Assembly: GCA_965262645.1 (NCBI GenBank)
Contig: CBDHFO010000017.1
Location: 1,784,582-1,848,581 of the forward strand
Reading direction: 5' to 3'
Length of the DNA stretch: 64,000 nucleotides
DNA from: Candidatus Marinacidobacterium sp.
GTDB taxonomy: Bacteria > Acidobacteriota > Vicinamibacteria > Marinacidobacterales > Marinacidobacteraceae
Shown: positions 20,819 through 40,012 of the stretch, piece after piece
Layout of the letters: the number at the start of each line of letters is the position of its first letter
Numbering within the stretch: position 1 is the stretch's first letter
Position numbers and translations under genes: made by a program
Notes under the pieces: model-generated
Seen by the model: only the letters and a program-made list of their open reading frames with translations
The model's database searches: none
What the model was told of the DNA's origin: nothing

Positions 20819-20878
20819 GGAACGTCGGCCAAACTGATTGGCGGGTTCAGCACGCCGGCCTCGTGTCCACAGCTCGGC

Positions 20879-25031: not shown

Positions 25032-25069
25032 CAGGCACACGTTCGGACGAGAGGAGTGCCCCGATCATC

Positions 25070-25327: not shown

Positions 25328-25572
25328 CCCCCCCTGATGACTGCCCCTTGTGCGGGCGCAGACTGATCGAAGCCCACTGGATTTCCGAATACAGTCAGTT
25401 TCTCTTCACCTACCCTTCCTGCACCACGTTCACGATCCCCCCGGAACTGGACAAATCGTTCAGAACTGAGTTTAGGGGCGATCCCGACATTCCGCGCCTT
25501 TCCCGCTACCTGCGTGAGGCCGGAGAGGACGACAACAGGGAGATCACTGTCGAGTCGTGGCGCACTGTGTAG
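25324..25572 (+). CDS. small hypothetical protein with an N-terminal CPLCG knuckle
   Basis: GTG at 25324 overlaps the previous TGA. 82 codons. Ends 51 nt before the methyltransferase ATG. Confidence 0.35.
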   Translation: MTPPDDCPLCGRRLIEAHWISEYSQFLFTYPSCTTFTIPPELDKSFRTEFRGDPDIPRLSRYLREAGEDDNREITVESWRTV

Positions 25573-25623
25573 GACAACAATTGTCGCTTGTACTTGGGAT
25601 CGCGACTTGGTACGGTATGTGCT

Positions 25624-26838
25624 ATGGCGACAATCACCCTCCAGCGCAACGTCCAATTCCTGTATGAGGAACACCTAGCCCGGGCCGAGGCTCAGGCCCT
25701 CGGGTGTGGTCTGTGGGATCGCGACGAGGGCAGCCTGCGGCAGGTGCGAGTGGATGTCAATGGGGAGTCCTCTGCTGTGCTGCGCCGAGCGGCCTACGTG
25801 GGAGCCCTCGACGGGGAAGACACGATCTATGAGCAGTTGATCCGGCCCAAGTTCCAGGGTGGGGCTTTCAACAGGACCCGCTCCGTAAATCAGTACCTGA
25901 CCCATTGGATCTATCCGTATCGCGGGAAGTTCCACCCCCAGATGGTCCGTGCGCTCCTCAACATCCTGGGTGTCACGCGGGGATCTCTCGTGCTGGATCC
26001 GCAGGTTGGGAGCGGGACTACCGCACTGGAGGCATCGCTGCTCGGAATCCGGTGTATTGGCGTCGATATCTCCCCACTGTGCGTCCTGCTGACCCGGGTG
26101 AAGACCCGATCCGTCGAGGCGGTGGGCCCGCTCCGGGAGCGCGTAGAAGCGCTCCTAGATAACGAAACGCTAGATCCTGCCGACGCTTCGCTCGCCCTCG
26201 ACGATAACCCGCTCGTCGCCGACTTTGTCCAGGTGGCGCGGATGACGACTCTGAGTGACGTGTCGCGGCGGAAGCGGGACGGGCATACCTGGTTCCGGAG
26301 AAACCTGTCGGCCATGCTGGAATCTGTAGAAGCCCATGCCCAGGCCCTCAAGGTGTTCGACATCCGCCCTGGTCAGGTTTCCGCCATCCGGGGAGACGCG
26401 CGAAATCTGCGCGCCTCGGGAATCGAAGATGCGACGATCGACGCAGTTGTCACGTCGCCTCCCTATTCGATCGCACTGGACTACGTGAAGAACGACGAGC
26501 ACGCGCTGGAGGCCCTTGGGATAGATCTGGAAGCCCTCCGGATGGAAATGACGGGAGTTCGCGGCCAAGGGCCCAAGGAAAAAATGACCCTCTACAACGA
26601 AGACATACAGACGATGTTCTGTGAGGTAGCGCGAGTATTGAAACCCGGTGCGAAGGCCGCGTTCGTAGTCGGCGACGCTACCGTTGATGGGCGGGAGTTG
26701 ACCACGACCAAGGATATGAAGACCTGGGCAACGAGCGCCGGCCTAGAGTTCGAGGGGGAGGTTCAGAAGGTGATCTTCGGCCTCTACAGTACGATGAAGG
26801 ACGAAATGATCCTGTTGTTCAAGAAGCCCCCTCAATAG
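25624..26838 (+). CDS. DNA methyltransferase (N6-adenine or N4-cytosine, SPPY type)
   Basis: Motif I VLDPQVGSGTTALEA precedes motif IV VVTSPPYSIALDY. ATG at 25624 preferred over the track's TTG at 25588. Confidence 0.8.
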   Translation: MATITLQRNVQFLYEEHLARAEAQALGCGLWDRDEGSLRQVRVDVNGESSAVLRRAAYVGALDGEDTIYEQLIRPKFQGGAFNRTRSVNQYLTHWIYPYRGKFHPQMVRALLNILGVTRGSLVLDPQVGSGTTALEASLLGIRCIGVDISPLCVLLTRVKTRSVEAVGPLRERVEALLDNETLDPADASLALDDNPLVADFVQVARMTTLSDVSRRKRDGHTWFRRNLSAMLESVEAHAQALKVFDIRPGQVSAIRGDARNLRASGIEDATIDAVVTSPPYSIALDYVKNDEHALEALGIDLEALRMEMTGVRGQGPKEKMTLYNEDIQTMFCEVARVLKPGAKAAFVVGDATVDGRELTTTKDMKTWATSAGLEFEGEVQKVIFGLYSTMKDEMILLFKKPPQ

Positions 26839-27218
26839 GGCGGCAGCCTCTTCACGTGAATGCAGCGATGCCTGCGTCGCGGTCTAGGAGAGCGTCACGT
26901 GCCAGTGGCGCTCGATGCTCCAGGAGGACGTGAACGGCGTGACTAGCGCTACATCTAGCACCCCTTGGAGAATGCACGTATCGGGGTCCGACGCAGGAAG
27001 CACCGCGGCGTGCGAGGACGATGAGACGGCCCTTGGGGCGGCAAGGAAGCTGGAACATAGTCCGGACGTGCCGCACGATGGCCCAGAGGCGAGCCGGCTG
27101 GCGGAATGACGCGAACACAAGAACGACAAACCCTGATGTCAGCCGAAGTGTTGCGTCGTGCCGGAATCCTTGGGCTCGATGCTCTCCGACCCGTGTCGTC
27201 GGTTCTCGCCCGAGCGGA

Positions 27219-28310
27219 TTACAGAGTGCCGCTGACGATCTTGTCGTGCAGTATCAACATCGCGAGCGCGTCTAGCAGCACGAGGTACTTCAGGGCCATG
27301 TCCCTCGTCTCGAAGTCGGTAAAGGCTCCGTGGACGATACCGTGCCGGTTTATCTCGTGTCTGGGGTCGTCGATTTTGGCAGTGTCCCTCCAGAATGTCC
27401 CCGTCTTGAGAAAGCCGAGTATCAATTCAAGGACAGGCGCTGGAAATAAAAGAATACTCCGCGAAAACACAAGCGCCCCGAGTTGACTCACCATGTCCTT
27501 GAATCCGCTCTCGGGCGACTCACCGGCGACTAACAAGTAGTCCTTCACAATGCCTTCAAACTGGGGCACGAGCACGTAAATCGAACTAATCCAGTCGCCC
27601 TCAAGATACTCGTCAACTGCCTTCTGGATGTAGCGCAGCCTGCCGGGAAAGAACTGCGCCTCTTTCCACAGCGCCATCTTTTGTTGCCAAAACTCGACGT
27701 TGTACGTGGCAGACACGGTGTCTGCGAATTCCGACTCTTGCAGCTTTCCAGGGTTTCGGTGCGCATAAGCAATGACATTCGGAAAATAGCCGGGAGCCGG
27801 CGGCCAGTTGATGGTCGCCAGTTGTCGAAACTTGTCCACCGGTTTGACCGCCTCGAGAAACTCTCGCATACGGACGAAGTCCGCAATCGGTACCGGCATC
27901 AGTTGCCGGATTTCGTCAGACTCGCTCTGGGTAAAGTCGAAGGGGATCTGAAAATTCAAGAAAGCCGAACGAAGCAGGAAATACGATCGGGGCATCCCGT
28001 CCACAATCGGCGGCCCTAGCACGGCAGAGTCAACGTCGATGTCGTCGAGGTGCACCGTCTGCCCCACCTTCATGGCCTTCCGCGGCTTGACACTTACCCT
28101 GAGTTGTACTTGCTCGTTCAGCTCGACCGAATGGCCGGGCCCAGGCTGAACAACCCTGAATTGGTGAACATGCAACGGAAGGCCGGCGGCCGCGATTGCG
28201 CCTGACCTAACACGTCTACCGATCTCCGGCAGCACGAAGATCTGCAGCATTTGTGAGACAGGGCGATACAGCATGATTTCGCTCTGCGCTGGCTCCATGG
28301 CTTCGGTCAT
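27219..28310 (-). CDS. hypothetical protein with a C-terminal HEPN/Abi_C-like Rx4H motif
   Basis: 363 aa, lower G+C. ...DDPRHEINRHGIVHGAFTDFE fits Rx4HG of HEPN nucleases. The N-terminal region of about 250 aa is unrecognised. Confidence 0.55.
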   Translation of the reverse strand: MTEAMEPAQSEIMLYRPVSQMLQIFVLPEIGRRVRSGAIAAAGLPLHVHQFRVVQPGPGHSVELNEQVQLRVSVKPRKAMKVGQTVHLDDIDVDSAVLGPPIVDGMPRSYFLLRSAFLNFQIPFDFTQSESDEIRQLMPVPIADFVRMREFLEAVKPVDKFRQLATINWPPAPGYFPNVIAYAHRNPGKLQESEFADTVSATYNVEFWQQKMALWKEAQFFPGRLRYIQKAVDEYLEGDWISSIYVLVPQFEGIVKDYLLVAGESPESGFKDMVSQLGALVFSRSILLFPAPVLELILGFLKTGTFWRDTAKIDDPRHEINRHGIVHGAFTDFETRDMALKYLVLLDALAMLILHDKIVSGTL

Positions 28311-28648
28311 GTCAGGCCCGCACTCACGGCCGACACGCCCGTTCCTGTAAGCCGTTCAGTGTTTCCTGTTGAAACGGACCGCAATCGGCCTGTGAGCCAA
28401 CCCGCCCAGATGGAAGTGGGTCGCATCCCGGACGCGAGCACCTTTGGGAGCCGCTGGCCATCTTGTTGAGTCACTGGACGCGGGACTTGATCGCCCAGAC
28501 GCGCGACACGCAGACCGCGAGCGCGGAGTGTAGCCAACTTCGACTGCTGCCTAGCTTCTTTTGCCACAGATGCTGCCGCTCCCGGGCCAGTCTCTCCGGA
28601 CAGTACAAGCTTCCGGTTCTCGTTCCGAAGCCTGTTCACCAGCGTCAC
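28307..28648 (-). CDS. possible small ORF coupled (ATGA) to the HEPN-like gene
   Basis: GTG start. The stop overlaps the ATG at 28310. The sequence is Arg/Ala/Gly-rich and low-complexity, so it may be spurious. Confidence 0.25.
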   Translation of the reverse strand: MTLVNRLRNENRKLVLSGETGPGAAASVAKEARQQSKLATLRARGLRVARLGDQVPRPVTQQDGQRLPKVLASGMRPTSIWAGWLTGRLRSVSTGNTERLTGTGVSAVSAGLT

Positions 28649-28717
28649 AACCCTACGCCACCTCTCGAAGGAACTCTACGGGAGCGCATTTCCCAGACGA
28701 GGACACGCCACGCCAAT

Positions 28718-30496
28718 TCATGGTGCGACAAAGTCGGCCAGTCTATTCAAAAGATCCCGCATCTCGGTGGGGACTTCGTCGCGGCACATAGCGTCGATTA
28801 TGCCGGTCGGAGTGACGCTGATTCCGTAGCTCTCCTGCAGGTGTTGGTTAACTGCCGCTAGGGCTTCCTTGGCTGGAACCAGCTCCAGTCTTCGCTGTTC
28901 ACCGGCTGCCCAATCGGCCCGAAATGCCTCCACTGCCTCCTGGGTAGTCGTGGCATCTGCCTGCCTGCGATTTGAAGCTAGAACGAACTTTCGGCGGAAT
29001 GCGATGAATTGAGCTTCTACGTACGTCTCCTTCTCTTCCGCGAAGGCATTCAGGATTTGGGAACACTCGTCTACGTACTCCGTTTTCGTGCCCGTTCGCC
29101 GTATACGCTCGGCACATCGCGCGCGTGCAGCTCGATCAATAGCCTCAGGGACAAGCAAGAAGCTCTCTAACTCCTTACAACTGTGTATTGCGACAAGATC
29201 GCAATACTCCGCGCCACGTTGACGGATTTGGTTGCATTCCAAGTCGGACCGATAATCCCTGTCTAGCACAACGGCAGCGCGAACATCACATCCGAGTGCG
29301 AGCTCAAACCCATCCTTCAGAATCCGAGCTCGGTCCGGATTAAAGCCCTTCATCGGGACCACGGCAAATCCCGTGCGGTAGCCCAAGTCCTTCAGCCCGA
29401 GCTTGCGTGCGTATCTTGCGAGTATCTGAAAGTCCGTGCCCTCCACAAACACAACCCGACGAGTCTTCGCCAATTGCGTAAGCGTCGGATTCAGAGTTGA
29501 TCCGAGGCTCGAGAACACTTCGGCTAGATGCGTCGGTTCATGGATTCGTTTGGCCTGCTTCCTGCCCTTGTCTATCAGGACGAGCTCGCCCTCACCGGCC
29601 TCGGAAATGATCTCCGTTGAGTGAGTCGCGATCAGTACGTAGGGACCCAATTCGGCGAGTATGCTCAGCAGTTTTCGCTGAAGGTCGGAGTGTAGGTATA
29701 TGTCTGGCTCGTCGATCAGGAAGATGGAGGAGTACTTGGACTTGACGACGTGCGTGAGCATCTGGCACCAGACCTGAAACCCGAATCCTGTCCAACCGAT
29801 CTCTCGCGTAATTCGATCTTCGGTACAGAACATGTGGATCATCGGTTTCTCAAGCAATCTGGCGGGCTCCGGTGGTCCGATGTTCATCCCAGGCCATGTC
29901 TCCCGGAGCGCGCTTTGAAACCACTCAAAATCCCGGGGATAGTGGAGCCAAATGTTTCTGAAATTGCGGGCTGCGCGGTAATTGAACAAGGCGAGACGCG
30001 CGGTCTCCTTCTCATATAGGCGCTCGTCTTGCTCGACGGGGCCGAGAATGGGGACAAATCCGATCGGGCAGTTGAAGGAGGATCTGAACTGGCTAGGGGA
30101 CCGAACCTGTTTCTTTGGATCGTCGACAAACAGATGGCACTTTTCGGTTTCGGGGAAATACAGCACGAGTCGCTTGCCACCCGTGAGCGAAAAAGTGACG
30201 GATGCACGTTTGGATTCGTGGTAGTTGAAAAAGATGTTCTCGTCGCCGACTGAAAGTGCTTTTAGATCCACTGAATAGCCGAATCGGAGACCGTCGAGTC
30301 CTTCGACTAGTTCAGCTTTGCGTGCGTTGGCCTTCCGGATGCCTTCGGCGAGTATTCGAAATGCAGCGAGAACTGTTGATTTCCCGGCGTTGTTTGGCCC
30401 CACCATTATGTTGATGTGCCGCAGGTGCAGAGTGAATGCTTCGAACGCCTTGAATCGCTTGAAGGCTACTTTGGTGTATCGCAGAAGATCAGACAT
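28718..30496 (-). CDS. OLD-family / DUF4435-type ABC ATPase-Toprim nuclease
   Basis: Walker A GPNNAGKST. Walker B IFLIDEPDIYLH. LIATHSTEII. C-terminal Toprim-like VVFVEGTDFQIL and AAVVLDRDYRSD (E...DxD). Starts 12 nt after the methyltransferase stop. Confidence 0.8.
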   Translation of the reverse strand: MSDLLRYTKVAFKRFKAFEAFTLHLRHINIMVGPNNAGKSTVLAAFRILAEGIRKANARKAELVEGLDGLRFGYSVDLKALSVGDENIFFNYHESKRASVTFSLTGGKRLVLYFPETEKCHLFVDDPKKQVRSPSQFRSSFNCPIGFVPILGPVEQDERLYEKETARLALFNYRAARNFRNIWLHYPRDFEWFQSALRETWPGMNIGPPEPARLLEKPMIHMFCTEDRITREIGWTGFGFQVWCQMLTHVVKSKYSSIFLIDEPDIYLHSDLQRKLLSILAELGPYVLIATHSTEIISEAGEGELVLIDKGRKQAKRIHEPTHLAEVFSSLGSTLNPTLTQLAKTRRVVFVEGTDFQILARYARKLGLKDLGYRTGFAVVPMKGFNPDRARILKDGFELALGCDVRAAVVLDRDYRSDLECNQIRQRGAEYCDLVAIHSCKELESFLLVPEAIDRAARARCAERIRRTGTKTEYVDECSQILNAFAEEKETYVEAQFIAFRRKFVLASNRRQADATTTQEAVEAFRADWAAGEQRRLELVPAKEALAAVNQHLQESYGISVTPTGIIDAMCRDEVPTEMRDLLNRLADFVAP

Positions 30497-33400
30497 CGTC
30501 GAAGGGTGTCAAGGAAGGCGATCCAGGAACATGGACCAAGCTGTGCGGTAGTCGTCCTCGCGGTTGGGGCGAGTGAAGGGGGCTTCGTAGGTGATGGTGC
30601 GCTCGTGGGGGCCGGTGGGGAGGGTGTCGTCGAGGATGGTGCGGGTGATGGTGGCGTCGGGGAGGTCGCGGATGTCCTCCCAGCCGAGGGAGAGGTTGGT
30701 TCGGGTGGAGGTCGGCGTCTGGAGGGTGTAGGAGGTGTCCTTGGGGTTGGCCTTGCGGGGGAGCCCGACGCCGGGCAGGCCCTTGGAAGCGGTGAAGACG
30801 ATGCGGCCGGTGGCGTCGTACCAGGTGTCGGCTTCGTATTGGCGGAGGACGGGAAACTGGATGCGGTAGATGGTGAGGAGTTCGTCGACGGTGAGGCCGA
30901 GGGCCATGGCGGAGAGTACGTCAATCTCGACGAGGGCTTGGCGGCGGGCGTAATCGGTGCGGAGGGCGACGTCGCGATGCCATTCGGACGTGAGACCGGA
31001 GAAGAAGTCGGGCGGCAGCCGCGGATCGGCCTTGCTCCAGGCGTCGCGGCGAAAGGCGTCAATATGGCGTTCTTCGGAGGCTGCACCGAGTCCGGCGAGG
31101 TGAGCAGCGCAGATCTCCCGCCAGAGATCGGCGTAGTGCGTGGTCAGACAGGAAAGAGATAACGCGCGTACCCGAAGGCTGAGGCGAACACGGCGTCCTA
31201 GATCAGCCCTCAGGACGGGTAGTTGGACGAGTCGAGATGGCCACAAGTCGCTGGTTCCGCTGATCTTGACCAAGAAATCAAGTGGTATGCATTGGGTTAT
31301 GGCCATGAAGTCGACCGCACATGCATTCTTCCGGAATGTAGTTGCCAGAAGTGTGTTGATCGAGGAGGAGGAAGGGATAGCCAGAGCGGTTACCAGCGTC
31401 CTTTCCCGCTCAGAGTTGATCATTCGGCGACTGATCACACGGTAGTAATCGGTAATCGGCCGCGCTGCCTGTTGCCCTGGTTCAATCCAACTAACTCGTG
31501 GCGTTCTCGCGGCGTACTCGGCGGGGACACACGCGGGGACGTAGTTTGTCCGGGGCAGGTAGTTATCGGGCAGTGCCGTAAGGTCCAAGGCATCGTAATC
31601 GCTGTTGAGCGTGCAGCGCCTCCGTGGCGTCTTGTTGAAGGGATTGCCGACAAAGAAATGAGGCCCCGAGAGCACCAGAGTGCCTGGACGCTCCGCGAAA
31701 CGCGTCTCTCGCCGGATGGTCCCATCCCGTTGAGACACAGATTCGTGCCAGTGCGCGCTGATTGTGATGTTGCCTGTTAGATCTCCCAGACGGTGTTCGT
31801 GAGCGGCCAGTTTCTTCAGAACACCAAGCAGCACATCTGCGTGTAGGGCCAGTAGGCGCGCTTCCGTTGCCGGTACGTCGGTATCGCTGGATAGCGCTGC
31901 GAAGATCCTTAGCGCCGCCCTATCCACTGTGATCACGCGGGCCCGATGCCCGGCCTGGTTCCACTGACCGTTGTTGTCCCTGAGCCCGGGTGCTAGACCG
32001 CTCCCGTCGTGTTCGAGACAGGCATCCACCGTTGTCGGGGCGTAAAGGTTGGCGATATGGATGAACTCGGGGGATGACAGCGAGCGGCCATACACATTGA
32101 CGCTGAATGTGGTGTGGTGATGCACCTCGGAGAACAGCCGTTTCTCGTTCTGAAACTGGAAGTGCGAGCGCAGACGTGGGTAAAGCCCCGCGCGGAACTC
32201 TCCGCCCTTCGGGTCGTCGTACACGCCCTCGGGATGGAGGAAGCCGGCAACGCCGCGATCGCTTCCGATCATCCAACCTTGTGGCAGGAAGCACTTGAAC
32301 AGGTTGGTCTGCTGTCCTGTCAACAGGGGGTAGTTTTGGCCCGAGTTCAGAAACGCCTGCGTCGCCTCCGCCTCCTCGACTTCCCCAATCCACGCATCCC
32401 TTAGCCCCTTATGGCGGTCGAACGCCGCCGCGCGCTGCTTCGACAACTCCGCCGCCGGTAGCGTCCGCAGCGCAAACGCCGGGTTCCGCTCCCCCAGTAC
32501 TCCGCGTTCCTCCCACTCCACCTTGATCCACGGCGGGTTCCCCAGCACCAGATCGAACCCGCCTCGCGCCTTGCCATCCTGTCCCGCCCCGTAAAACAGG
32601 TCCGCGAACGCCAGCTCCCAGTGATGGAACCGGCGCTGCCGCGCGAGCTCGTCCACGAACCGGAGCCTCGGGAACTGCTCGAACAGCTTCTCCAGGTCCA
32701 GCATCCCGACCTCGTCCGTGATCCGCTGCGCGATGTCCGCCGCGTGCTCGGCGTCGGCGTAGTCGTCCCCGAACAGGCTCCGCACCTGCGTTCCGACCTC
32801 CGGGTGGTACACCGATCCGGTCAGCACCAGGCTCACCTCGTTCAGGAAGTCCTGCCGGCTCGGCAACCGCTCGGACTCGCGGACCGGCCAGAACCAGAGC
32901 GCGCACCAGTAGTCCATCACCAGCTTCAGCCGCCGGTAGGGGCTGGCCGTCCGCGTCCCCTCGCTCAGCACCCCCTGGGCGCGGATGCGGTCCTTCCACG
33001 CATTCGAGGTCGCCTTCCCGGCCGGAGCGCCGTCCCGGCCCCACACCGGAAGCGGGTCCTCCGTCTCCCGGTGGTCCCCGCCGAGCTGCTCCGTCTGGAG
33101 CGCCCACAGCTTGTCCACCTGATCCGACAGCGACTCCAGTTCCTCGATCTCGCCCTCGTCGAACCCTCGGACGAACTCCTTGCGCCACATGGCCATCCGC
33201 TTGAAGTGTTCCGGCTCCAGCGCCTTCGCGTCCTTGTTCCGGTACGCCGCCATCCCCGGGTCCGGGAGCAGGAAGTGATAGACCGAGCCCGGCGGACGCC
33301 GCATCTCCTGGTTCAGCGCGGGCGGCACCCGCTCCGGGGCCTCGGCATACCAGAGGTCCGCCTTCCGCGCCGGGCGGAGCCGGTCGGCCGGGTACACCTG

Positions 33401-35094
33401 CCGCCGCGCGCCGATCAGCGAGTTCCCAACGACGAGCTGGAAACCGAACCACGGGACGTGGCCATCCTTGTGGATGCAGTTCAGCCACAGCGAGATCTCG
33501 GCCAGTTCCACCGCCACCGGGTTCAGGTCCACGCCGTACACGTTGCGGTCGGCGATGTAGTGCCGCACCTTCTGCAGCTCGTCGGCGTAGTCCGCGTGGG
33601 GGATGCGCTTGCCGAGTTCCCGTTGCCGCCGCTCCAGGTAGCGCTCCGCGAGCTGGTTCACGGCCTCGTTCAGGAACGCGGCGGACCCCATCGCCGGCTC
33701 GCAGATCGTGAGGTCGAGGATGCGCTCGGCGGGCATGTCGTCGGGGATCAGTTCCTTCAGCGAGTACTTGACGACGCAGCGGGTCAGCGATTCGGGGGTG
33801 TAGTAGCTGGCCGACTTCTTCCGGTCCCGCCCGGCGAGCCGGTAGATGAAGCGGCCCTGCCGGTGGACGCGGAGCGTCTTCCGCCCGTGCTCGTCCCGGT
33901 CGTACACCCGCTCGGCCTCGTCGTACTGGTGGAGGTCGCGGGCCGGGACGAACCAGGCGTTCTTCAGGTCGTCCGGGTCGTCCTTCGCCTTCTTGACTTC
34001 GTAGAGGTCCTCCTCCGCGAAGAACCCGCGGTAGGACAGCAGCGCCTCATAGACCGCGCCGAGCTGGTTGATGCCGAGCTGGGCGTAGGAGATGCGTCCG
34101 CGCCGGCCCCGGCGTCCGCGCGCCGGACGGCTCAGCGACATCAGCCGGATGACCGGCTGCAGCACCCGGTTCCGCAGCTTCACCTTGTCGAGCAGCGGCG
34201 TGGCGCCCTCCCGGAACAGGGCGCTGTCGAGCTTGCGGATGTGGAAGGCGTCCTGGCCGTAGCGGAGCTTTCCGGACGCCCCCTCGAAACCGTCCCGGAT
34301 CAGCCGGAAGAGCAACTGGATGGAGTCGTGGAGGTAGAAGCCGTCGAGCGCCTCCTCGCTGTGGAGCGGGACCATTTCGAGGTCGCGCAGACGCTCCAGG
34401 CTGTAGCCCATGCGGTAAGCGTCCGCGTTCATCGGCGCGTAGCCGAGGTCCGGGCGGGCCTCGATGTAGAAGAGGAACAGCAGTCGGTACATGTACCGGA
34501 GGCATTCGAGCCCGAGCTCTCCCGCCAGTTCGTCGTCGAGGTCGTACACCTTGTCCTTGCGGACCTCGCGCAGGTAGCGGATCGCTTCGTTCCCGATCGC
34601 TTCGATGGCCTCCCGGAGGGCGTACTTCAGGTCCTCGGAAACCGCGAAGGCGTGCTTGTGGCTGTTCTCGTCGAGGCGATCGAGGAGGCTCTGGCCGTCG
34701 GGCGGCAGGAGGGAGTCCCGGTGCAGCAGCGCCGCCGTCGCCTTCAGGGTGGCGTCCTCGCCGCGGCCGAGAATCTCGTCGAGGTCGAAGCGGAGCAGCC
34801 GGTTGTGCGTCCACTTCCCCCGCTCGATCAGCAGGATGCGGTCGAAGGTGAGCAAGAGCACCCAGCGCGGCGGGTAGTCCCGCCCGAAGACGCCGCGCGT
34901 GATCACTTCGTTCCAGGTGGCGTCGAGCAGTTCCTTCGGCGGCGGCGCCTCCCCGTCGAACTGCGTCGGGTGCGGGTGCAGGGTGAGCGGATCGTCGCCT
35001 TCGCCCTCCGTGTCGAGCGCGTCGAGCACGAAGAGCTGCGCCGACCCGTCCCGGAAGCCGTCCGCGCCGAGCGCCGGCAGCGGGTTGCCGTCGT

Positions 35095-35098
35095 CTAG
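35095..35098. repeat. target-site duplication CTAG (left copy)
   Basis: CTAG directly abuts the IS inverted repeat. Identical CTAG at 36738-36741. The duplication could be read as CTAGGAG, because the IR begins with GAG. Confidence 0.7.
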
Positions 35099-36737
35099 GA
35101 GTCTGCGCCGCAGGAAGTCGTTTCACTGGCGGATTTGACGTGGCGGCGCGTTTGTGATGGGGTGGTGATGTTCATATAAGTCTTTGATATAGTGTGTTTT
35201 ATGCTGGCTCGGATGAGCTGGGTCGAGTTGGAGGAGCAAGGCATGCCGACGAGATTTCGAGCGTATCAGCCGGATCAGATCCTGCTGCTGCCGCCGAAGC
35301 TGAAGGACTGGGTTCCCGAGGGGCACTTGGCGCACCAGGTGAGCGACGTGGTGGACAAGCTGGATCTTTCGGCGTTTTACGCTCCGTATGAGGGGGACGG
35401 CCGTCGGAACGCGCCGTATTCGCCGGCGATGATGGTGAAGGTGTTGATCTACGGGTATGCGACGGGGGTGTTTTCGTCGCGGGGGATCGCGCGGAAGTTG
35501 GAGGAGGATGTGGCGTTTCGGATGCTGGGGGCGGGGAACTTTCCGAAGCATCGGACGGTCTGCGAGTTTCGGTGGCGTCATCTGAAGGATTTCCGGAAGT
35601 TGTTTTGTGAGGTGGTTCGGGTGTCGCGTGAGATGGGGTTGGTTCGCTTCGGGACGCTATCGATCGACGGGACGAAGGTTCGGGCGAACGCGAGCAAGCG
35701 GAAGGCGATGAGTTACGACCGGCTGGTTCAGGAGGAGGCGCGGCTTCGGGAGGAGATCGCGGGTTTGACGTCGACGGCGGCGCGGGTGGACGGGGAGGAG
35801 GACGCACGCTTGGGGAAGGAGGTGCGAGGCGACGAGTTGCCGGAGGAGTTGCGTCGGCGGGAGGATCGGCTGCAGGCGATCGAGGCGGCGCGGGAGCGAC
35901 TGGAGGCGGCGCAGCGTCGGGCGGACGATGAGCGGGGGCGGCAGCCGGGGCAGGATCGCCCGGCGAAAGGCGGGAGCCCCTACAAGCGCCAGTACGGCGA
36001 GCCGGAACCGAAGGCGCAGAGCAACTTCACGGACCCTCAGAGTCGGATCATGAAGACGAGCACGGAGGGCTTCCAGCAGAGCTACAACGCGCAGACGGCG
36101 GTGGATGACGCGCACCAGATCGTGGTGGGGGCGAACGTGGGAGCGGGGGCCAACGATGTGGAGCAGTTGCTTCCCATGCTGGACGCGGTGGAGGAGACCC
36201 TGGGCGCGCCGCCGGCGGAGGTTCTGGCGGATGCGGGATACGCCAGCGAGGCGAACCTTCGGGAGTTGGAGGAGCGCGGCATCGCGGGGTATGTGGCGCT
36301 CGGTCGGGAGGGGAAGAAGCGGGCGGCGGTGGACCCGGCGAAACGCCCGGCGACGGATCGGATGAAGAAGAAGCTGGAGACGGAGGCGGGCCGCGCCCGC
36401 TACGCCCGCCGGAAGTGGCTGTCCGAAGCGCCGAACGGCTGGATCAAGGAGGTGCTTGGTTTTCGCCGCTTCAGCTTCCGGGGTCTCGCGAAAGTGCAGG
36501 CCGAGTGGAACCTGGTGTGCCTGGCCGTGAACATCAAGCGGATCGGAGCGCTCACAACCGCCTGATGGGACTCCCCGAAACCGCTCGCCGCGGGTCCCAA
36601 CCGGGAATACGCCGCGTTGGCGCCGTTTCGGCCACTCCCAACCGGTCGCTGGCCCCGAGGTCACGCCAAAATCCGAATTCCGCGCTCGTTCCGAACGTAT
36701 CTACGCCCCATCCGCACAACTCCTGCGACGCAGGCTC
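35099..36737 (+). mobile_element. IS element, IS1182/IS5-like, about 1.64 kb
   Basis: Terminal inverted repeats GAGTCTGCGCCGCAGGAAGT (left) and the reverse complement of the right end, GAGCCTGCGTCGCAGGAGTT (16/20 matches). Single transposase ORF. CTAG duplication. Confidence 0.85.
35243..36565 (+). CDS. IS1182-family (IS4/IS5 superfamily DDE) transposase
   Basis: MPTRFRAYQPDQILLLPPKLKDWVPEGHLAHQV...YSPAMMVKVLIYGYATGVFSSRGIA...LSIDGTKVRANAS...ADAGYASEANL. GGAGGAG lies 7 nt upstream of the ATG at 35243. Confidence 0.85.
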   Translation: MPTRFRAYQPDQILLLPPKLKDWVPEGHLAHQVSDVVDKLDLSAFYAPYEGDGRRNAPYSPAMMVKVLIYGYATGVFSSRGIARKLEEDVAFRMLGAGNFPKHRTVCEFRWRHLKDFRKLFCEVVRVSREMGLVRFGTLSIDGTKVRANASKRKAMSYDRLVQEEARLREEIAGLTSTAARVDGEEDARLGKEVRGDELPEELRRREDRLQAIEAARERLEAAQRRADDERGRQPGQDRPAKGGSPYKRQYGEPEPKAQSNFTDPQSRIMKTSTEGFQQSYNAQTAVDDAHQIVVGANVGAGANDVEQLLPMLDAVEETLGAPPAEVLADAGYASEANLRELEERGIAGYVALGREGKKRAAVDPAKRPATDRMKKKLETEAGRARYARRKWLSEAPNGWIKEVLGFRRFSFRGLAKVQAEWNLVCLAVNIKRIGALTTA

Positions 36738-36741
36738 CTAG
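36738..36741. repeat. target-site duplication CTAG (right copy)
   Basis: See 35095-35098. Confidence 0.7.
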
Positions 36742-37042
36742 GAGGTGGTCGCCCGGATGCCAGCCGTGGCCGAGCGGGTAGAGGATCTTGCGGAGCCAGT
36801 CCCGTTGCAGCTTCAGTCGGGACTCGGGACGGCGTTCCCGCTGGTACTCGGCGCGGCGTCGCCGGTATTCGCCGGCGAGCGCTCGCAGCCGCTCGTACGG
36901 GGGCTTGTCGCCGTTCGCGGCGTCCTTGCGCCAGGCGTCGGTGGTCTCGCCGATGTCACGGCTGAAGATCTCGGAAAGGTAGTGGTGGCTGTAGAACTCG
37001 TTCTCGTTGTGGATGCCGACGAACGCGGCCGCCGGCTTCGAA

Positions 37043-40012
37043 CTACGCGGAGGCATTTGCGTCTTCACCCCCGGTCAGGACGCAGATCACCTTGATCCAC
37101 GGCTGCCTCTCGGTGGTCATGGTCTCCTGGATCCAGTCGAGGTACTCCCCGAAGATGTCCTCGATCTCCTGCCGTTGCTGCGCCGCGAGGCGTTGCTTGA
37201 GCGTTTCCGCCTGCCGGGACGTCGCCAGCATCTCTTCGATGCGAGCGTGTTGCCGGTGTTTGAGGTCTTCGAGGGCCGCCATCTCCCCGTTCAGCTTGGC
37301 GTTGATGTGGTCCTCGAATGCCTTCCGGCGGTCGGTGAACCGCCGCCGGGCGCGCTCCACCGCGTTAGGGAGACGCTGGCGCAGCCCTGCCTGGTCCACC
37401 GGGATCCCGCGGTTCGGGATCTCTTTGCGTCCGAGCCCGGTGCGGTCCAGGAGGTCAGGGAAGGCGACCAGCGCCTCGAACCGGCCGCCCCGGTAGGTGA
37501 CGCCGATCCATTCGTACACCAGGGGGTGCCCCTTGCGGTTCGGGACCAGGCCCGAGCACACGAACACCGCCTCGTCCGGCGCGAGCCCCGGGATTCCCGC
37601 CAGCACCGGCGCCTCGCGCCGCCCGAACGCCGCGAGCATCCGGTCGTCGAGCCAGCTCACCACCGGGTTCAGGCGCCACAGGTATTGGAGCGCGGGCCAG
37701 GCGGTCTCCTCCCGGCGGCTCTCCGTGATCGCTGCGGCCATGCGACCGCGGTCGGCGGTCAGCACGAAACGCCCGTCCTTCGGCATCACCTCGCGGGGGA
37801 AGGAGCCGAACCGGTGTTTCAGGTCTTCGGGGGCGTCCAGCGTCAGGGTCGAGGACTCCGGGTGCGCCTCGAAATGGAGTCCGGCGTTTCCCGGGGCGTT
37901 TCCCTGCCGCGCCCGGAGGCGGTCGAGGCCGGCCCGGCAGTAGGCGAACTCATCCGGGAAGAGGGATAGCGGGGCTTCCAGCGCGGGCGCATTCTCGGCC
38001 GCGGAGGAGGGGGCGGCGTCGGCGGCGCCGTTCCCGCCCAGGAAGAGTGCGAGCAGGTCGTCTCCCTCGCTCCCCTCGTCCGCGCTGTGCTCAAGGCGCT
38101 CGTCGAAACGCTTCGCGTCCTCCCCGGCGGCCACCGCCTGCTCGGTGATGTCCTCCTCCGCCTTGATGTCGCGGACGTTCATGAACGCGGAGGGGTCGCC
38201 GATGTTGCGGTACGCCTGCTCGTCCTTGTCCTGGAGCACTTCGAGGATGCGCTGGTCGCCGCGGATCGTGGGGTTCGCGCTCTCGCTGGTCAGATAGACG
38301 ATCTGCGGGGTGCGCTCCTGTCCGTAGCGGTCCACCCGGCCGTTGCGCTGGGAGAAGACCATGAGCGACCACGGCATGTCGAAGTGGATGAGCCGGTGGC
38401 AGGTGTAGTGGAGGTTGATCCCCTCGGAGGCGACATCGGAACAGACCAGCAGCCGCACCGGGGACTTCGCGTGGCCGAAGGCTTCCACCGCCCGTTGCTG
38501 ATCCACATCGGACATCCCGCCGTGGAGGGTGTCCAGTTGGCCGACGCGGAGGCGCAGGTCGCTCGACAGGCGCTCCCGGAGCCAGCGGAGGGTCTCGATC
38601 CGCTCGGTGAAGATGACGAGCCGGTCCTCCGGGTCGGTGGGGCGCCAGCGGAAAGGCTGGCCGCCGCGGATCGCTTTGAGGAGGGCCTGGTACTTGGCGA
38701 AGTCGGTAGCCTCGATACGGCTCACCGCCTCGTCGAGAGCGCGGAGGGACTCCACCTCGCCGGCGACCGCCGGGGTTTCGGCGCCGTCCCGTTCGCGCTC
38801 CCGGCGGGCGAGGCGCGTCCTGATGGTGGCGCGACAGGCCGCCGGACTCGAAAAGAGGGCCTTTTCGAGAGTGACGAGGAAGAGGTCGCGGCGGGTGGTC
38901 CCGTCGGGAGCGGAAGCCGTCCGCGAGCCCGCGATCCGGACCGCGAGCAGCGCTTCGTAAGCGGCTTCTTCGGCCGGCGAGGCCCGGAACCGGCAGCGCA
39001 CGATCTCGCGGTCGCGGAAGGCGTCCTTGACTTGGTGTTGGACGTCCTTCTTGAAGCGGCGGATCACGAGTCCCTTGTCGCGGAAGTCCTCCCGCGAGTA
39101 GTGCTCCGGGTCGGTGATCGCGGTGGCGTCCAGCATGTTCATCAGGCTGGCGAAGCTGCGCGCCCGTCCGTCGTGCGGGGTTGCCGAGAGCATGATCAGG
39201 GTGTCCGAGCGGCGCGCCAGCAGGCGGGCGAGCCGGCTGCGCAGCGAGCGCGAGCCGCGGTCGGCGACGTTCTGCGCCTCGTCAATCACGATGATGTCCC
39301 ACCAGGCGTTTTCGAGGTAGGTCCGGTACTCGGCGTCCTGCTTCAGGGTGTCTATCGAGATGATCGACTTGTCGTAGTAATGAAAGGGGTTGTGGTTCGT
39401 GGGGATGCGGCTGCGGACCCGCTGAATCCCGATGGAGTCGAGCCGGGTGAGCGGGATCGTGAAGCGGTTCCAGAACTCCTTCTGGAACTGGGTCAACATG
39501 CTCTTGACGGCGAGCACGAGGATCCGCCGGCCCCGTCCGCGGGCGATCAGCTCGCTGACCAGGATTCCCGCTTCGAGGGTCTTCCCGAGTCCCACTGCGT
39601 CGGCGATGAGGATGCGCTGCCGGGGCTGGCGGAGCGCCTGGCGGGCGGGGTCCAACTGGTAGGGGACGAGATCCATGGCGGCGGTGTGGCCGACGTGGAT
39701 CCGTTCGTCGCTCGGCACGGCCTGGCGCAACTGGCTCTCCATGAAGAGGAGGCTGTCAGCGAAGCGGGGGGAGCGGTCCGGAACCAGGACAGTGCGGGCG
39801 GGGTCGAGCACCTCGATCTGGGGTTCGATCGCGGTGAGGAAGATCGCCTCCCGCTCGCGGACGAGTTCCGAGACGCCGACACAGAGGAGTTGCTGTCCGC
39901 CGGCGGCGGAAGGGTCCACGCTGCGGACGACCCACTCGGCGTCCCGGATCAGCACCCGGGCGCCGGGGGCGAAGGTGATCTCGGGTGCTGTGGTGGTCGG
40001 CGCTCCGGGCAT
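37043..40012 (-). CDS. SNF2-family helicase (DrmD-like)
   Basis: Motifs ADAVGLGKTLEAG, IIVIDEAQNV, MLSATPHDG, CSDVASEGINLH and FSQRNGRVDRYGQ. 989 aa. Its 3' end overlaps the methyltransferase start. Confidence 0.85.
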   Translation of the reverse strand: MPGAPTTTAPEITFAPGARVLIRDAEWVVRSVDPSAAGGQQLLCVGVSELVREREAIFLTAIEPQIEVLDPARTVLVPDRSPRFADSLLFMESQLRQAVPSDERIHVGHTAAMDLVPYQLDPARQALRQPRQRILIADAVGLGKTLEAGILVSELIARGRGRRILVLAVKSMLTQFQKEFWNRFTIPLTRLDSIGIQRVRSRIPTNHNPFHYYDKSIISIDTLKQDAEYRTYLENAWWDIIVIDEAQNVADRGSRSLRSRLARLLARRSDTLIMLSATPHDGRARSFASLMNMLDATAITDPEHYSREDFRDKGLVIRRFKKDVQHQVKDAFRDREIVRCRFRASPAEEAAYEALLAVRIAGSRTASAPDGTTRRDLFLVTLEKALFSSPAACRATIRTRLARRERERDGAETPAVAGEVESLRALDEAVSRIEATDFAKYQALLKAIRGGQPFRWRPTDPEDRLVIFTERIETLRWLRERLSSDLRLRVGQLDTLHGGMSDVDQQRAVEAFGHAKSPVRLLVCSDVASEGINLHYTCHRLIHFDMPWSLMVFSQRNGRVDRYGQERTPQIVYLTSESANPTIRGDQRILEVLQDKDEQAYRNIGDPSAFMNVRDIKAEEDITEQAVAAGEDAKRFDERLEHSADEGSEGDDLLALFLGGNGAADAAPSSAAENAPALEAPLSLFPDEFAYCRAGLDRLRARQGNAPGNAGLHFEAHPESSTLTLDAPEDLKHRFGSFPREVMPKDGRFVLTADRGRMAAAITESRREETAWPALQYLWRLNPVVSWLDDRMLAAFGRREAPVLAGIPGLAPDEAVFVCSGLVPNRKGHPLVYEWIGVTYRGGRFEALVAFPDLLDRTGLGRKEIPNRGIPVDQAGLRQRLPNAVERARRRFTDRRKAFEDHINAKLNGEMAALEDLKHRQHARIEEMLATSRQAETLKQRLAAQQRQEIEDIFGEYLDWIQETMTTERQPWIKVICVLTGGEDANASA

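What the first reader, a model, noticed from the sequence alone, without database searches (positions are those of the whole stretch)
30509..40012. DISARM class-1-like core (SNF2 helicase plus ~1,640-codon NPPW adenine methyltransferase) without the canonical DrmA/B/C neighbours
The gene at 37043-40012 (-) carries a full SNF2 motif set. Its 3' end overlaps the start of a giant gamma-class N6A methyltransferase (EPAMGSAAF, GNPPW). An SNF2 helicase (DrmD) paired with a large adenine methyltransferase (DrmMI) is the signature of class 1 DISARM, which normally continues with DrmA (helicase), DrmB (DUF1998) and DrmC (PLD). Here the gene 12 nt downstream is an OLD/Toprim ATPase, followed by a HEPN-like gene. 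The only helicase/DUF1998 protein lies about 9.7 kb further on the same strand, and I see no PLD-type ORF. Either a DISARM locus was pulled apart by later cargo, or this is a non-canonical SNF2-methyltransferase system with different effectors.
Basis: partly seen in the sequence, partly recalled or inferred. Interest (0 to 1): 0.75.

Follow-up and report, generated by a model that had tools for sequence, protein, structure and literature searches.

The report
Broken ARMADA type II defence locus
The SNF2 helicase and giant methyltransferase are the first two genes of a recently described four-gene anti-phage system (ARMADA type II); here 9.7 kb of unrelated defence genes separates them from the other two genes, and the copy is probably dead because a transposable element and a premature stop codon interrupt it.

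Summary
The interpretation needs one correction and one extension.

**Identity.** The SNF2 gene (37043-40012, -) and the roughly 1,640-codon NPPW methyltransferase are not an orphan DISARM core. They are armA and armB of an ARMADA type II system (Bell et al. 2025; mBio 2026). The DUF1998 helicase 9.7 kb downstream (14375-20818) is the cognate armC, and the UvrD-like gene after it (12249-14378) is armD.

**Evidence.** All four proteins align end to end with the experimentally validated E. coli O157:H7 ArmA-D, at 52, 48, 38 and 48% identity.

**Cargo.** The OLD-like ATPase and the 363-aa HEPN-like gene are lower-GC cargo, not partners. They are essentially absent from 80 homologous loci.

**State of this copy.**
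- A 1,639-bp IS1182-family element with a CTAG target duplication splits armB.
- A TGA in armC replaces a conserved CxxC cysteine.
- Every arm gene is essential in E. coli, so this copy is probably inactive.

**Possibly new.** Across the sampled loci the armB-armC junction is a hypervariable slot. It holds at least 1 kb of cargo in 45 of 60 loci, and the cargo includes complete Zorya and Mokosh systems. The ARMADA papers I read do not mention this.

The parts
37043..40012 (-). armA: BrxHII/RapA-like SNF2 helicase, 989 aa, intact
   Evidence: Pfam SNF2-rel_dom and Helicase_C. It is 52% identical to E. coli Sakai ArmA (ECs_5261), residues 13-983 against 5-951 of 952. The Walker A and B residues equivalent to K136 and D236 are conserved. 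The closest solved structure is RapA. It lies directly upstream of armB in 52 of 68 homologous loci, with a gap of 110 nt or less.
36742..37068 (-). armB 5' fragment, about 110 codons of true armB. The likely start is the ATG at 37056. The present ORF runs on into the IS and stops at 36661.
   Evidence: It aligns to residues 2-114 of E. coli ArmB.
35095..36741 (+). IS1182-family insertion sequence. The element spans 35099-36737 (1,639 bp) with imperfect terminal inverted repeats, and its transposase gene is at 35192-36565 (+). The CTAG target-site duplication lies at 35095-35098 and 36738-36741.
   Evidence: Inverted repeat I1. NCBIfam transpos_IS1182 at 377 bits, cut-off 270. The relative L002 shows the empty site, with alignment blocks meeting at window 35100/36740. 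The same insertion is present in an independent contig, L085, which is 99.89% identical over 24.5 kb.
30509..35098 (-). armB 3' fragment: PglX-like gamma-class N6-adenine methyltransferase with EPAMGSAAF and GNPPW. The reconstructed armB is 1,638 aa.
   Evidence: Reconstruction gives a single frame. It is 48% identical to E. coli ArmB, residues 15-1633 against 2-1637 of 1644. The G605 and N971 equivalents are conserved. Intact homologues are 1,620-1,700 aa.
20819..30508 (.). 9.7-kb cargo inserted between armB and armC.
- OLD-like ATPase, 28718-30496 (-)
- 363-aa HEPN-like protein, 27219-28310 (-)
- N6/N4 DNA methyltransferase, 25588-26838 (+)
- M78/ImmA-like peptidase, 23635-24654 (-)
- AbiEi antitoxin, 22540-23385 (-)
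- PIN_3 protein, 20879-21307 (-)
- several small unassigned ORFs
   Evidence: Family hits. GC is 0.61 overall (0.56 at 27.2-30.5 kb), against 0.66-0.73 for the arm genes. None of these genes is conserved next to armB in other loci. Homology with L002 ends at the armB stop codon.
14375..20818 (-). armC: YprA-family DExH helicase with DUF1998/MZB and a C-terminal nuclease region, 2,147 codons. It is interrupted by an in-frame TGA at 19136-19138 (codon 561).
   Evidence: Pfam DEAD, Helicase_C and MZB. It is 38% identical to E. coli ArmC over residues 1-2136 against 1-2111 of 2113. It scores 1,387 bits to ArmC against 220 bits to E. coli DruE. The TGA aligns with the second Cys of a CxxC motif, which is Cys in 43 of 54 homologues. 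The K110 and D234 equivalents are conserved.
12249..14378 (-). [quoted passage not shown] Its start overlaps the armC stop by 4 nt.
   Evidence: Pfam UvrD-helicase and UvrD_C. It is 48% identical to E. coli ArmD, residues 9-710 against 7-701 of 704, with 53 of the first 100 positions identical. The K266 and D454 equivalents are conserved. It follows armC at 110 nt or less in 25 of 29 loci.

Best explanation
The region is the front half of an ARMADA type II anti-phage locus, which spans window 12249-40012 on the minus strand.

**The four genes**
- armA: an SNF2/BrxHII-like helicase.
- armB: a PglX-like N6-adenine methyltransferase.
- armC: a YprA-family DExH helicase fused to OB-CON-DUF1998 and a C-terminal nuclease region.
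- armD: a GajB-like UvrD helicase with an extra N-terminal domain.

**How the system works**
Shown in E. coli by others: the system gives direct, non-abortive protection against many phages. All four genes are required, as are the ATPase motifs of ArmA, ArmC and ArmD and the NPPW motif of ArmB.

Inferred only, by analogy with DISARM and BREX: ArmB marks host DNA. The three motor proteins load on unmodified or replicating phage DNA, and the ArmC nuclease destroys it.

**What is particular to this window**
1. A 9.7-kb block of unrelated, lower-GC defence-type genes sits between armB and armC. It contains an OLD-like ATPase, a HEPN-like protein, an orphan methyltransferase, an M78 peptidase, AbiEi and a PIN protein. 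This junction carries variable cargo in most homologous loci.
2. An IS1182-family element split armB after about codon 110.
3. armC carries a TGA in place of a conserved zinc-motif cysteine.

The system is therefore most likely inactive. The inactivation looks recent, because all other motifs and frames are intact.
For: **Identity**
- Full-length, collinear alignments to E. coli O157:H7 Sakai ECs_5261-5264 (ArmA-D) give 963, 1482, 1387 and 638 bits.
- ArmC scores 1,387 bits to E. coli ArmC against 220 bits to E. coli DruE.
- The definition and experiments are in 10.1101/2025.09.15.676423 and PMC13463889.

**Conserved cassette**
- Across 80 genome loci from many phyla the order SNF2 - methyltransferase - YprA helicase - UvrD recurs.
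- Seven fully compact four-gene versions are L034, L046, L050, L065, L074, L077 and L080.

**Cargo**
- OLD has one weak hit and the 363-aa protein has none in those loci.
- Cargo GC is lower than the arm genes.
- The syntenic relative L002 shares armA, armB and the efflux-operon flank but carries different genes after armB.

**Insertion sequence**
- Terminal inverted repeats, a CTAG duplication and frame restoration on removal.
- An IS1182 transposase.
- An empty site in L002, and the same insertion in the independent contig L085.

**Premature stop**
-.

**Motifs**
- All eight residues that were mutated experimentally in E. coli are conserved.
Against: - The TGA in armC is seen only in this window. 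The independent contig does not reach that position, so an assembly error cannot be excluded. A selenocysteine reading is formally possible because the TGA sits at a Cys position, but the downstream fold is no better than shuffled sequence (z = -0.97).
- The Vsr-type nuclease of ArmC and the RelE-like domain of ArmD rest on the published structure-based assignment. No Pfam model hit those regions here.
- Methylation by ArmB, and discrimination of self from non-self by that mark, is not shown in the papers I read.
- PADLOC 2.0 and NCBIfam 20.0 contain no ARMADA models, so no curated HMM threshold could be applied.
Confidence: 0.9

Rival explanations
1. A class 1 DISARM locus (DrmD + DrmMI + DrmA/DrmB, with or without DrmC) whose core was separated from DrmA/B by inserted cargo.
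For: - The best PADLOC family for the SNF2 protein is DrmD (PDLC02621, 325 bits), and the methyltransferase hits DrmMI models.
- The same overall logic applies: SNF2 + N6A methyltransferase + DUF1998 helicase.
- ARMADA is itself described as DISARM-related.
Against: - NCBIfam DISARM_DrmD scores 358 bits, below the 610 cut-off, and covers only the N-terminal half.
- DrmMI matches only about 170 core residues, at 178 bits. The whole protein matches another model at 865 bits.
- The helicase hits DrmA models at 36 bits or less. In homologues it is one fused protein of about 2,100 aa.
- There is no HKD/PLD motif.
- A conserved UvrD-like fourth gene is present, and all four genes are orthologous to E. 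coli ArmA-D.
Confidence: 0.03
2. A non-canonical SNF2-methyltransferase system that uses the adjacent OLD-type ATPase/nuclease and the HEPN-like protein as its effectors.
For: - Only 12 nt separate the methyltransferase stop from the OLD-like start, and both are on the same strand.
- Both downstream proteins look like defence effectors.
Against: - Among 80 homologous loci, OLD has one weak hit (47 bits) and the 363-aa protein has none. The YprA helicase is present in at least 55.
- GC falls from about 0.66-0.69 in armA/armB to 0.56 across these two genes.
- Homologues of the 363-aa protein stand alone, without OLD or armAB neighbours.
- The 81%-identical relative L002 has other genes at this position.
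Confidence: 0.02
3. A plain type IIG/IIL restriction-modification enzyme with an accessory helicase, as the best PADLOC label (REase_MTase_IIG) would suggest.
For: PADLOC PDLC03614 'REase_MTase_IIG' matches nearly the full length at 865 bits. Pfam Eco57I and MmeI_Mtase also hit.
Against: - No nuclease domain was detected.
- No PDB sequence relative was found, even with a profile.
- The protein is 42-85% identical over its full length across phyla. It therefore lacks the variable target-recognition region expected of type IIG enzymes.
- It is almost always embedded in the four-gene cassette.
- The validated E. coli ArmB belongs to the same family, so the PADLOC label is most likely a naming carry-over from REBASE predictions. 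That last point is my inference.
Confidence: 0.03
4. The locus is ARMADA type II, but armC is not really broken. The TGA would be an assembly error or would be decoded (selenocysteine or readthrough), or the two armC pieces (560 aa + 1,578 aa, with a GTG restart 25 nt downstream) would work as a split protein.
For: - The related ENA contigs appear to be long-read assemblies, and gene calls are split in two of them: SNF2 in L002 and AbiEi in L085.
- The TGA sits at a Cys position.
- A GTG start lies 8 codons after the stop.
Against: - Split gene calls of that kind more often reflect insertion or deletion errors than a single-base substitution, and this is a clean in-frame TGC/TGT-to-TGA-type change.
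- No significant SECIS-like structure was found.
- The break falls inside the helicase core region, not at the helicase/DUF1998 boundary where natural splits occur.
- Regardless, armB is IS-disrupted in two independent contigs, and armB is essential in E. coli.
Confidence: 0.12

Closest known systems
ARMADA type II (armABCD), e.g. E. coli O157:H7 Sakai ECs_5261-5264 = EDL933 Z5899-Z5902; Bell et al. 2025 bioRxiv 10.1101/2025.09.15.676423; mBio 2026 PMC13463889
   Same: - The same four proteins occur in the same order and at the same sizes: 989/952, 1638/1644, 2147/2113 and 709/704 aa.
- Identity is 52, 48, 38 and 48% end to end.
- All experimentally essential motifs are conserved.
- The armA/armB and armC/armD start-stop overlaps are retained.
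   Different: - armB and armC are 9.7 kb apart here, against 2 nt in E. coli.
- An IS interrupts armB.
- armC has a premature TGA.
- The host is a roughly 67% GC environmental bacterium, probably Acidobacteriota judging from the nearest ArmB homologues.
- The locus lies in a chromosomal island next to an RND efflux operon. It is not in a tRNA-integrated element with Zorya II and Druantia III.
Class 1 DISARM (DrmD, DrmMI, DrmA, DrmB, DrmC)
   Same: Both have an SNF2 helicase followed by a large N6-adenine methyltransferase, plus a YprA-type helicase with DUF1998. ArmA and ArmB are homologous to DrmD and DrmMI.
   Different: - The helicase and DUF1998 parts are fused and belong to the ARMADA/Druantia branch.
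- The nuclease is fused to ArmC rather than being a separate PLD DrmC.
- There is an additional UvrD-like ArmD.
- Scores fall below the DrmD cut-off, and DrmMI matches only the core.
Druantia type III (DruH, DruE)
   Same: ArmC and DruE are sister YprA-family helicases of about 2,100 aa. The best PADLOC families for the armC pieces are DruE models, and the closest solved structures are roughly 2,000-aa helicases.
   Different: There is no DruH. ArmC scores 220 bits to E. coli DruE against 1,387 bits to ArmC. Druantia III has no SNF2, methyltransferase or UvrD partners.
Operons of other defence systems with embedded accessory genes, e.g. type I R-M hsd loci carrying PrrC or Abi genes, and BREX loci with embedded type IV restriction. 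This comparison rests on my own knowledge and was not tested here.
   Same: Unrelated defence genes are nested between the modification and restriction halves of a multi-gene system.
   Different: Here the slot is occupied in about three quarters of sampled loci, and it holds entire multi-gene systems such as Zorya I, Zorya II and Mokosh.

Membership tests
ARMADA type II | ArmA: a BrxHII/RapA-like SNF2 helicase encoded first | tested here: met
   Pfam SNF2-rel_dom and Helicase_C. RapA is the closest solved structure. It is 52% identical end to end with E. coli ArmA.
ARMADA type II | ArmB: a PglX-like N6-adenine methyltransferase (NPPW) encoded second | tested here: met
   The reconstructed 1,638-aa protein is 48% identical to E. 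coli ArmB over its full length. The GxG and NPPW motifs are conserved. The gene is IS-disrupted in this copy.
ARMADA type II | ArmC: a YprA-family DExH helicase fused to OB-CON-DUF1998, belonging to the ARMADA clade and not the Druantia or DISARM clades | tested here: met
   DEAD, Helicase_C and MZB (PF09369) domains. It scores 1,387 bits to E. coli ArmC, 220 bits to E. coli DruE and 36 bits or less to PADLOC DrmA. No formal phylogeny was built.
ARMADA type II | A Vsr-type (PD-(D/E)xK) nuclease domain at the ArmC C-terminus | tested here: inconclusive
   The last 500 aa have no Pfam hit at E <= 0.5. The region does align collinearly with E. coli ArmC at 25-35% identity per 100 residues. It also shares a segment with ZorE2. 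The fold was not modelled.
ARMADA type II | [quoted passage not shown] | tested here: met
   UvrD-helicase and UvrD_C domains and GajB hits. The alignment to E. coli ArmD covers residues 9-710, with 53 of the first 100 positions identical. There is a 4-nt start/stop overlap with armC. The RelE fold itself was not tested: no Pfam hit.
ARMADA type II | Strict gene order armA-armB-armC-armD | tested here: met
   The order and strand are as defined. Contiguity is broken by 9.7 kb between armB and armC, as it is in 45 of 60 homologous loci with at least 1 kb there.
ARMADA type II | Anti-phage activity that requires all four genes | not testable with these tools
   Shown for the E. coli systems only. 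It is predicted to be lost here because of the IS in armB and the TGA in armC.
DISARM class 1 | DrmD SNF2 helicase | tested here: inconclusive
   DrmD is the best PADLOC family (325 bits, N-terminal half only). NCBIfam DISARM_DrmD scores 358 bits, below the 610 cut-off.
DISARM class 1 | DrmMI methyltransferase | tested here: not met
   The DrmMI models match only the catalytic core, at 178 bits or less. PDLC03614 matches the full length at 865 bits.
DISARM class 1 | A DrmA helicase with the OB-CON-DUF1998 module on a separate DrmB protein | tested here: not met
   Homologues are single proteins of about 2,100-2,190 aa. The split in the window is a nonsense codon at residue 561, not at the helicase/DUF1998 boundary.
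DISARM class 1 | DrmC PLD nuclease | tested here: not met
   There is no HxKx4D...G[ST]xN motif in six frames. No PLD family appeared among the scanned proteins.
Type IIG restriction-modification enzyme | Nuclease and methyltransferase in one polypeptide with a variable target-recognition domain | tested here: inconclusive
   The PADLOC REase_MTase_IIG model matches the full length. However, no nuclease domain was found and there is no PDB relative. The whole protein is conserved at 42-85% identity across phyla.
Gabija (GajA OLD-type + GajB UvrD) | Adjacent GajA and GajB genes | tested here: not met
   The OLD-like gene (28718-30496) and the GajB-like gene (12249-14378) are 14 kb apart. The latter is ArmD.

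The most novel reading that the evidence does not exclude
ARMADA type II operons may contain a built-in, hypervariable cargo slot between armB and armC where other defence systems accumulate and turn over. The window's 9.7-kb OLD/HEPN/AbiEi/PIN block would be one instance.

**Evidence from the sampled loci**
- The armB-armC gap has a median of 2.9 kb, and 45 of 60 loci carry at least 1 kb there. By contrast the median is 32 nt for armA-armB and 65 nt for armC-armD.
- The 161 cargo ORFs fall into 138 sequence clusters.
- The cargo includes complete Zorya II, Zorya I-type genes, Mokosh MkoA, AbiEi and others.
- Cargo GC is lower than the flanking arm genes in 45 of 45 loci.
- Diverged relics of armB 3' ends lie inside the cargo in three loci. 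This hints at cassette exchange by recombination between ARMADA loci.

**Status in the literature**
The ARMADA papers I could read describe a 'strict gene order' and do not mention this. E. coli loci are compact.
Probability: 0.5. Interest if true: 0.55.

Novelty: new member of a known kind. Interest (0 to 1): 0.4.

Why it matters
For annotation: an SNF2 helicase paired with a giant NPPW methyltransferase should now be read as armA-armB. The partners armC and armD should be looked for up to about 10 kb or more downstream. PADLOC 2.0 and NCBIfam 20.0 would mislabel the four genes as DrmD, type IIG R-M, DruE and GajB.

For biology: this locus shows an ARMADA system in decay, with an IS in the methyltransferase and a nonsense codon in the helicase-nuclease.

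The family-wide comparison suggests that ARMADA II commonly carries other defence systems inside its own operon. Zorya II, known to co-localise with ARMADA II in E. coli, is one of them. If that holds, it offers natural material for studying synergy between nested systems and how defence islands grow.

Tried and rejected
- **Hma system.** I considered PADLOC's Hma (helicase-methylase-ATPase) system because SNF2 + methyltransferase + ATPase fits the name and HmaA scored 171 bits. I dropped it once synteny showed that the OLD-like ATPase is not conserved.
- **Gabija.** The OLD-like and UvrD-like genes are 14 kb apart, and the UvrD-like gene is ArmD.
- **Selenocysteine at the armC TGA.** The downstream fold is not significant.
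- **Source contig.** The look-up of encoding contigs on the window's ArmA and on P0003 returned nothing. P0001 gave the independent contig L085.
- **EDL933 record.** The accession NC_002655.2 is not in the collection, so I used Sakai instead.
- **Homologue search with the armC N-fragment.** It returned mostly truncated or partial proteins and no near-identical relative. It served only for the CxxC column count.
- **Promoter and terminator scan of the cargo.** Matches were at or below the shuffle expectation, so it was uninformative.
- **Fold search for the 363-aa protein.** The best match was a HEPN protein at only E = 0.64.
- **Profile search of PDB sequences with ArmB.** No hit.
Full report
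**1. What is in the window**

The window is about 67% GC, and spurious ORFs abound. I therefore picked genes by third-position GC and then by family scans.

On the minus strand, the ORF at 37043-40012 encodes a 989-aa SNF2 helicase (Pfam SNF2-rel_dom, Helicase_C). Downstream, the 'giant methyltransferase' is not one ORF. There is a 135-codon piece (36661-37068) and a 1,506-codon piece (30509-35029), and between them on the plus strand lies a 457-aa transposase gene (35192-36565).

The transposase scores 377 bits on NCBIfam transpos_IS1182, above the cut-off of 270. Imperfect inverted repeats sit at 35095-35115 and 36721-36741, and CTAG occurs at both ends. Deleting 35099-36741, that is the 1,639-bp element plus one CTAG, gives a single 1,638-codon frame that carries EPAMGSAAF and GNPPW.

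**2. Family scans**

- *SNF2 protein.* PADLOC ranks DrmD first (PDLC02621, 325 bits), but only for residues 12-408. NCBIfam DISARM_DrmD gives 358 bits against a cut-off of 610.
- *Methyltransferase.* It matches PADLOC 'REase_MTase_IIG' PDLC03614 almost end to end (865 bits). The DrmMI models match only about 170 core residues, at 178 bits or less.
- *Gene 12 nt downstream (28718-30496).* It is an ABC/OLD-type ATPase (AAA_21, AAA_15; weak GajA, Old and NsnB hits). Its Toprim match is sub-threshold.
- *363-aa gene (27219-28310).* It has no HMM hit.
- *ORFs at 19136-20818 and 14375-19111.* They are in the same frame and separated by one stop codon. Together they hit DruE models, DEAD, Helicase_C and MZB/DUF1998.
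- *ORF at 12249-14378.* It is a UvrD/GajB-like helicase.

**3. Synteny decides the question**

The methyltransferase family is very large, with at least 8,000 database hits, and is conserved over its whole length. Intact members are 1,620-1,700 aa.

A scan of one genome per species returned 80 loci from Pseudomonadota, Acidobacteriota, Cyanobacteriota, Bacillota, Bacteroidota, Verrucomicrobiota and others, at 42-82% identity. I searched the window's proteins against ORFs and six-frame translations of those loci.

- The SNF2 homologue is present in 66 loci, usually directly upstream.
- Homologues of the DUF1998 helicase are present in 55-57 loci, always downstream on the same strand.
- The UvrD-like gene is in 26 loci. 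It lies immediately after the helicase wherever the locus extends far enough.
- The OLD-like protein has one weak hit, and the 363-aa protein has none.

Seven loci carry the four genes back to back: L034, L046, L050, L065, L074, L077 and L080. The conserved unit is thus SNF2 (about 960 aa) - methyltransferase (about 1,640 aa) - helicase/DUF1998 (about 2,100-2,190 aa) - UvrD-like (about 700 aa).

**4. This unit has a name**

A literature search found that Bell et al. (bioRxiv 10.1101/2025.09.15.676423) define ARMADA, the 'disARM-related Antiviral Defense Array'. Type II has the strict order:

- ArmA, a BrxHII/RapA-like SNF2 helicase;
- ArmB, a PglX-like methyltransferase;
- ArmC, a YprA-like helicase with OB-CON-DUF1998 and a C-terminal Vsr-type nuclease;

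In E. coli the system gives direct, non-abortive protection. Deleting any one gene abolishes it. So does mutating the Walker motifs of ArmA and ArmC, the Walker A motif of ArmD, or NPPW of ArmB. An mBio 2026 paper (PMC13463889) confirms this for armABCD = Z5899-Z5902 of EDL933.

**5. Direct membership test**

I fetched the orthologous locus of E. coli O157:H7 Sakai, ECs_5261-5264, whose proteins are 952, 1644, 2113 and 704 aa. I then aligned the window's proteins to them.

| Protein | Identity | Window residues | E. coli residues |
|---|---|---|---|
| ArmA | 52% | 13-983 | 5-951 |
| ArmB (reconstructed) | 48% | 15-1633 | 2-1637 |
| ArmC (read through the stop) | 38% | 1-2136 | 1-2111 |
| ArmD | 48% | 9-710 | 7-701 |

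The window's ArmC scores 1,387 bits to E. coli ArmC and 220 bits to the neighbouring E. coli DruE. All eight experimentally mutated residues are conserved in the window.

NCBIfam 20.0 has no ARMADA model: even the E. coli ArmB, ArmC and ArmD pass no cut-off. PADLOC 2.0 predates the system. That explains the mixed DrmD / type IIG / DruE / GajB labels.

**6. State of this copy**

*The IS in armB.* It is real. The 81%-identical relative L002 is syntenic with the window on the RND-efflux side. Its alignment blocks meet at window 35100/36740 with a 4-nt overlap, which is an empty site. An independent ENA contig (L085, sample ERZ25068833) is 99.89% identical over 24.5 kb and carries the same insertion and the same cargo.

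*The TGA in armC (19136-19138).* It aligns with the second cysteine of a CxxC motif that is Cys in 43 of 54 homologues. It is therefore most simply a Cys-to-stop substitution. The RNA downstream folds no better than shuffled sequence (z = -0.97), so a SECIS element is not supported. This site is not covered by the independent contig, so an assembly error remains possible.

*Conclusion.* Because each arm gene is essential in E. coli, the locus is probably inactive. Everything else is intact, so the decay looks recent.

*Other decayed copies.* IS disruption of armB recurs elsewhere. L060 has an ISL3 transposase inside armB (306 bits, cut-off 180).

**7. The 9.7 kb between armB and armC is cargo**

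It contains:

- the OLD-like ATPase;
- the 363-aa protein;
- a plus-strand N6/N4 methyltransferase;
- an M78/ImmA-like peptidase;
- AbiEi (268 bits);
- a PIN_3 protein.

GC is 0.61 overall and 0.56 over the OLD/363-aa end, against 0.66-0.73 for the arm genes. Homology to L002 stops at the armB stop codon.

The 363-aa protein belongs to a family of about 100 members. In three other genomes it stands alone, with no OLD neighbour. It has an invariant Rx4H motif. The AlphaFold model is confident (pLDDT 88), and its best PDB match is a HEPN protein, but only at E = 0.64. 'HEPN-like' is therefore plausible but unproven.

The flanks of the whole island are ordinary metabolic and transport genes.

**8. 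A family-wide pattern seen in passing**

| Junction | Median gap | Tight (≤110 nt) | ≥1 kb |
|---|---|---|---|
| armA-armB | 32 nt | 52 of 68 | 8 of 68 |
| armB-armC | 2.9 kb | 10 of 60 | 45 of 60 |
| armC-armD | 65 nt | 25 of 29 | 0 of 29 |

The armB-armC gap reaches the 8.7-kb limit of what the flanks allow.

- The 161 cargo ORFs form 138 sequence clusters.
- 113 of them are co-oriented with the arm genes.
- Cargo GC is lower than armB+armC in 45 of 45 loci, by 5.4 points on average.
- PADLOC finds whole systems there. Zorya II is in L079 (ZorA2 588, ZorB2 319, ZorE2 391 bits), and its three genes have cluster homologues in L024 and L041. Zorya I-type ZorA and ZorD, full-length Mokosh MkoA (1,732 bits), AbiEi, GajB-like and HEC proteins also occur.
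- Three loci keep diverged relics of an armB 3' end inside the cargo, 69-86% identical to the resident copy.

The Bell et al. text describes a strict gene order and does not mention such insertions. In E. coli the junction is 2 nt, and it is contiguous in 431 of 526 genomes that carry it.

My ORF calling in the loci was crude (greedy longest ORFs). The sample is the 80 best of at least 576 hits, with 10-kb flanks, so the numbers are indicative.

**9. Verdict**

It belongs to an already described system, ARMADA type II, and OLD/HEPN are bystanders. The instance itself is an ordinary member, though degenerate. The nested-cargo pattern is the only part that may be new.

Noticed in passing
L003-L082 (armB-armC junctions); window 20819-30508: The armB-armC junction of ARMADA II is a hypervariable cargo slot. 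It holds at least 1 kb in 45 of 60 loci, and its 161 ORFs fall into 138 clusters. Cargo GC is lower than the arm genes in 45 of 45 loci. The armA-armB and armC-armD junctions are tight by comparison.
   Followed up: partly
L079:16951-20557; also L024 and L041: A complete Zorya type II (ZorA2, ZorB2, ZorE2) is nested between armB and armC in Halomonas almeriensis. Homologous three-gene sets occur in Billgrantia and Luteimonas. This echoes the Zorya II-ARMADA II co-localisation known from E. coli.
   Followed up: partly
L043:15268-20151; L017:15053-22825: A full-length Mokosh MkoA (1,732 bits) lies in the armB-armC slot of L043. L017 has a four-ORF set in the same slot (711, 254, 615 and 1,010 aa). 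The cargo census found strong Zorya type I ZorA and ZorD hits, but I did not check which loci they came from.
   Followed up: partly
L048:17848-22873 and L075:12930-17976: A second SNF2 protein in the cargo slot matches PADLOC DrmD PDLC02623 end to end (854 bits). An unassigned protein of about 620 aa follows it. This may be another two-gene module riding inside ARMADA.
   Followed up: no
L014:19859-20083, L032:10849-11370, L062:15414-15539: Short relics of armB 3' ends lie inside the cargo. They are only 69-86% identical at the DNA level to the resident armB end. That suggests past cassette exchange between ARMADA loci.
   Followed up: partly
window 19136-19138: The in-frame TGA in armC falls exactly on the second Cys of a conserved CxxC zinc motif. 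It is most likely a nonsense mutation. A selenocysteine reading is not supported by the downstream fold.
   Followed up: yes
window 27219-28310 (-): This 363-aa protein belongs to a small uncharacterised family of about 100 members with an invariant NRHGIxHG (Rx4H) motif. Its confident AlphaFold model has no significant PDB match. It occurs as a stand-alone gene in other genomes.
   Followed up: partly
window 20879-26838: The rest of the cargo comprises AbiEi (22540-23385) with no recognisable AbiEii partner, an M78/ImmA-like peptidase (23635-24654), an orphan N6/N4 DNA methyltransferase on the opposite strand (25588-26838), and a PIN_3 protein (20879-21307) just upstream of armC.
   Followed up: partly
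L060:11923-13149; L013:10001-19318: Other decayed or rearranged ARMADA loci turned up. An ISL3 transposase is inserted in armB of a Candidatus Multivorans MAG. A Bryobacterales MAG has two armB copies tail to tail.
   Followed up: partly
window 14411-14650 (ArmC C-terminus); L024, L041, L067, L079 ZorE genes: The last 80 or so residues of ArmC are homologous to the C-terminal part of ZorE2 (PADLOC ZorE2 hit at 29 bits; tblastn 45-55 bits). The two systems appear to share a domain.
   Followed up: no
PADLOC PDLC03614 / NCBIfam 20.0: The PADLOC model labelled 'Type IIG restriction enzyme-methyltransferase' (PDLC03614) matches ArmB end to end. NCBIfam has no ARMADA model. RefSeq names E. coli ArmB 'class I SAM-dependent DNA methyltransferase'. 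Automated annotation therefore hides this system.
   Followed up: partly
window 42280-48549 (+) and L002:11-6100: A TolC-like outer-membrane factor and an RND permease flank armA in both the window and the 81%-identical relative L002. The ARMADA island thus occupies the same chromosomal site in both lineages, while its internal cargo differs.
   Followed up: partly
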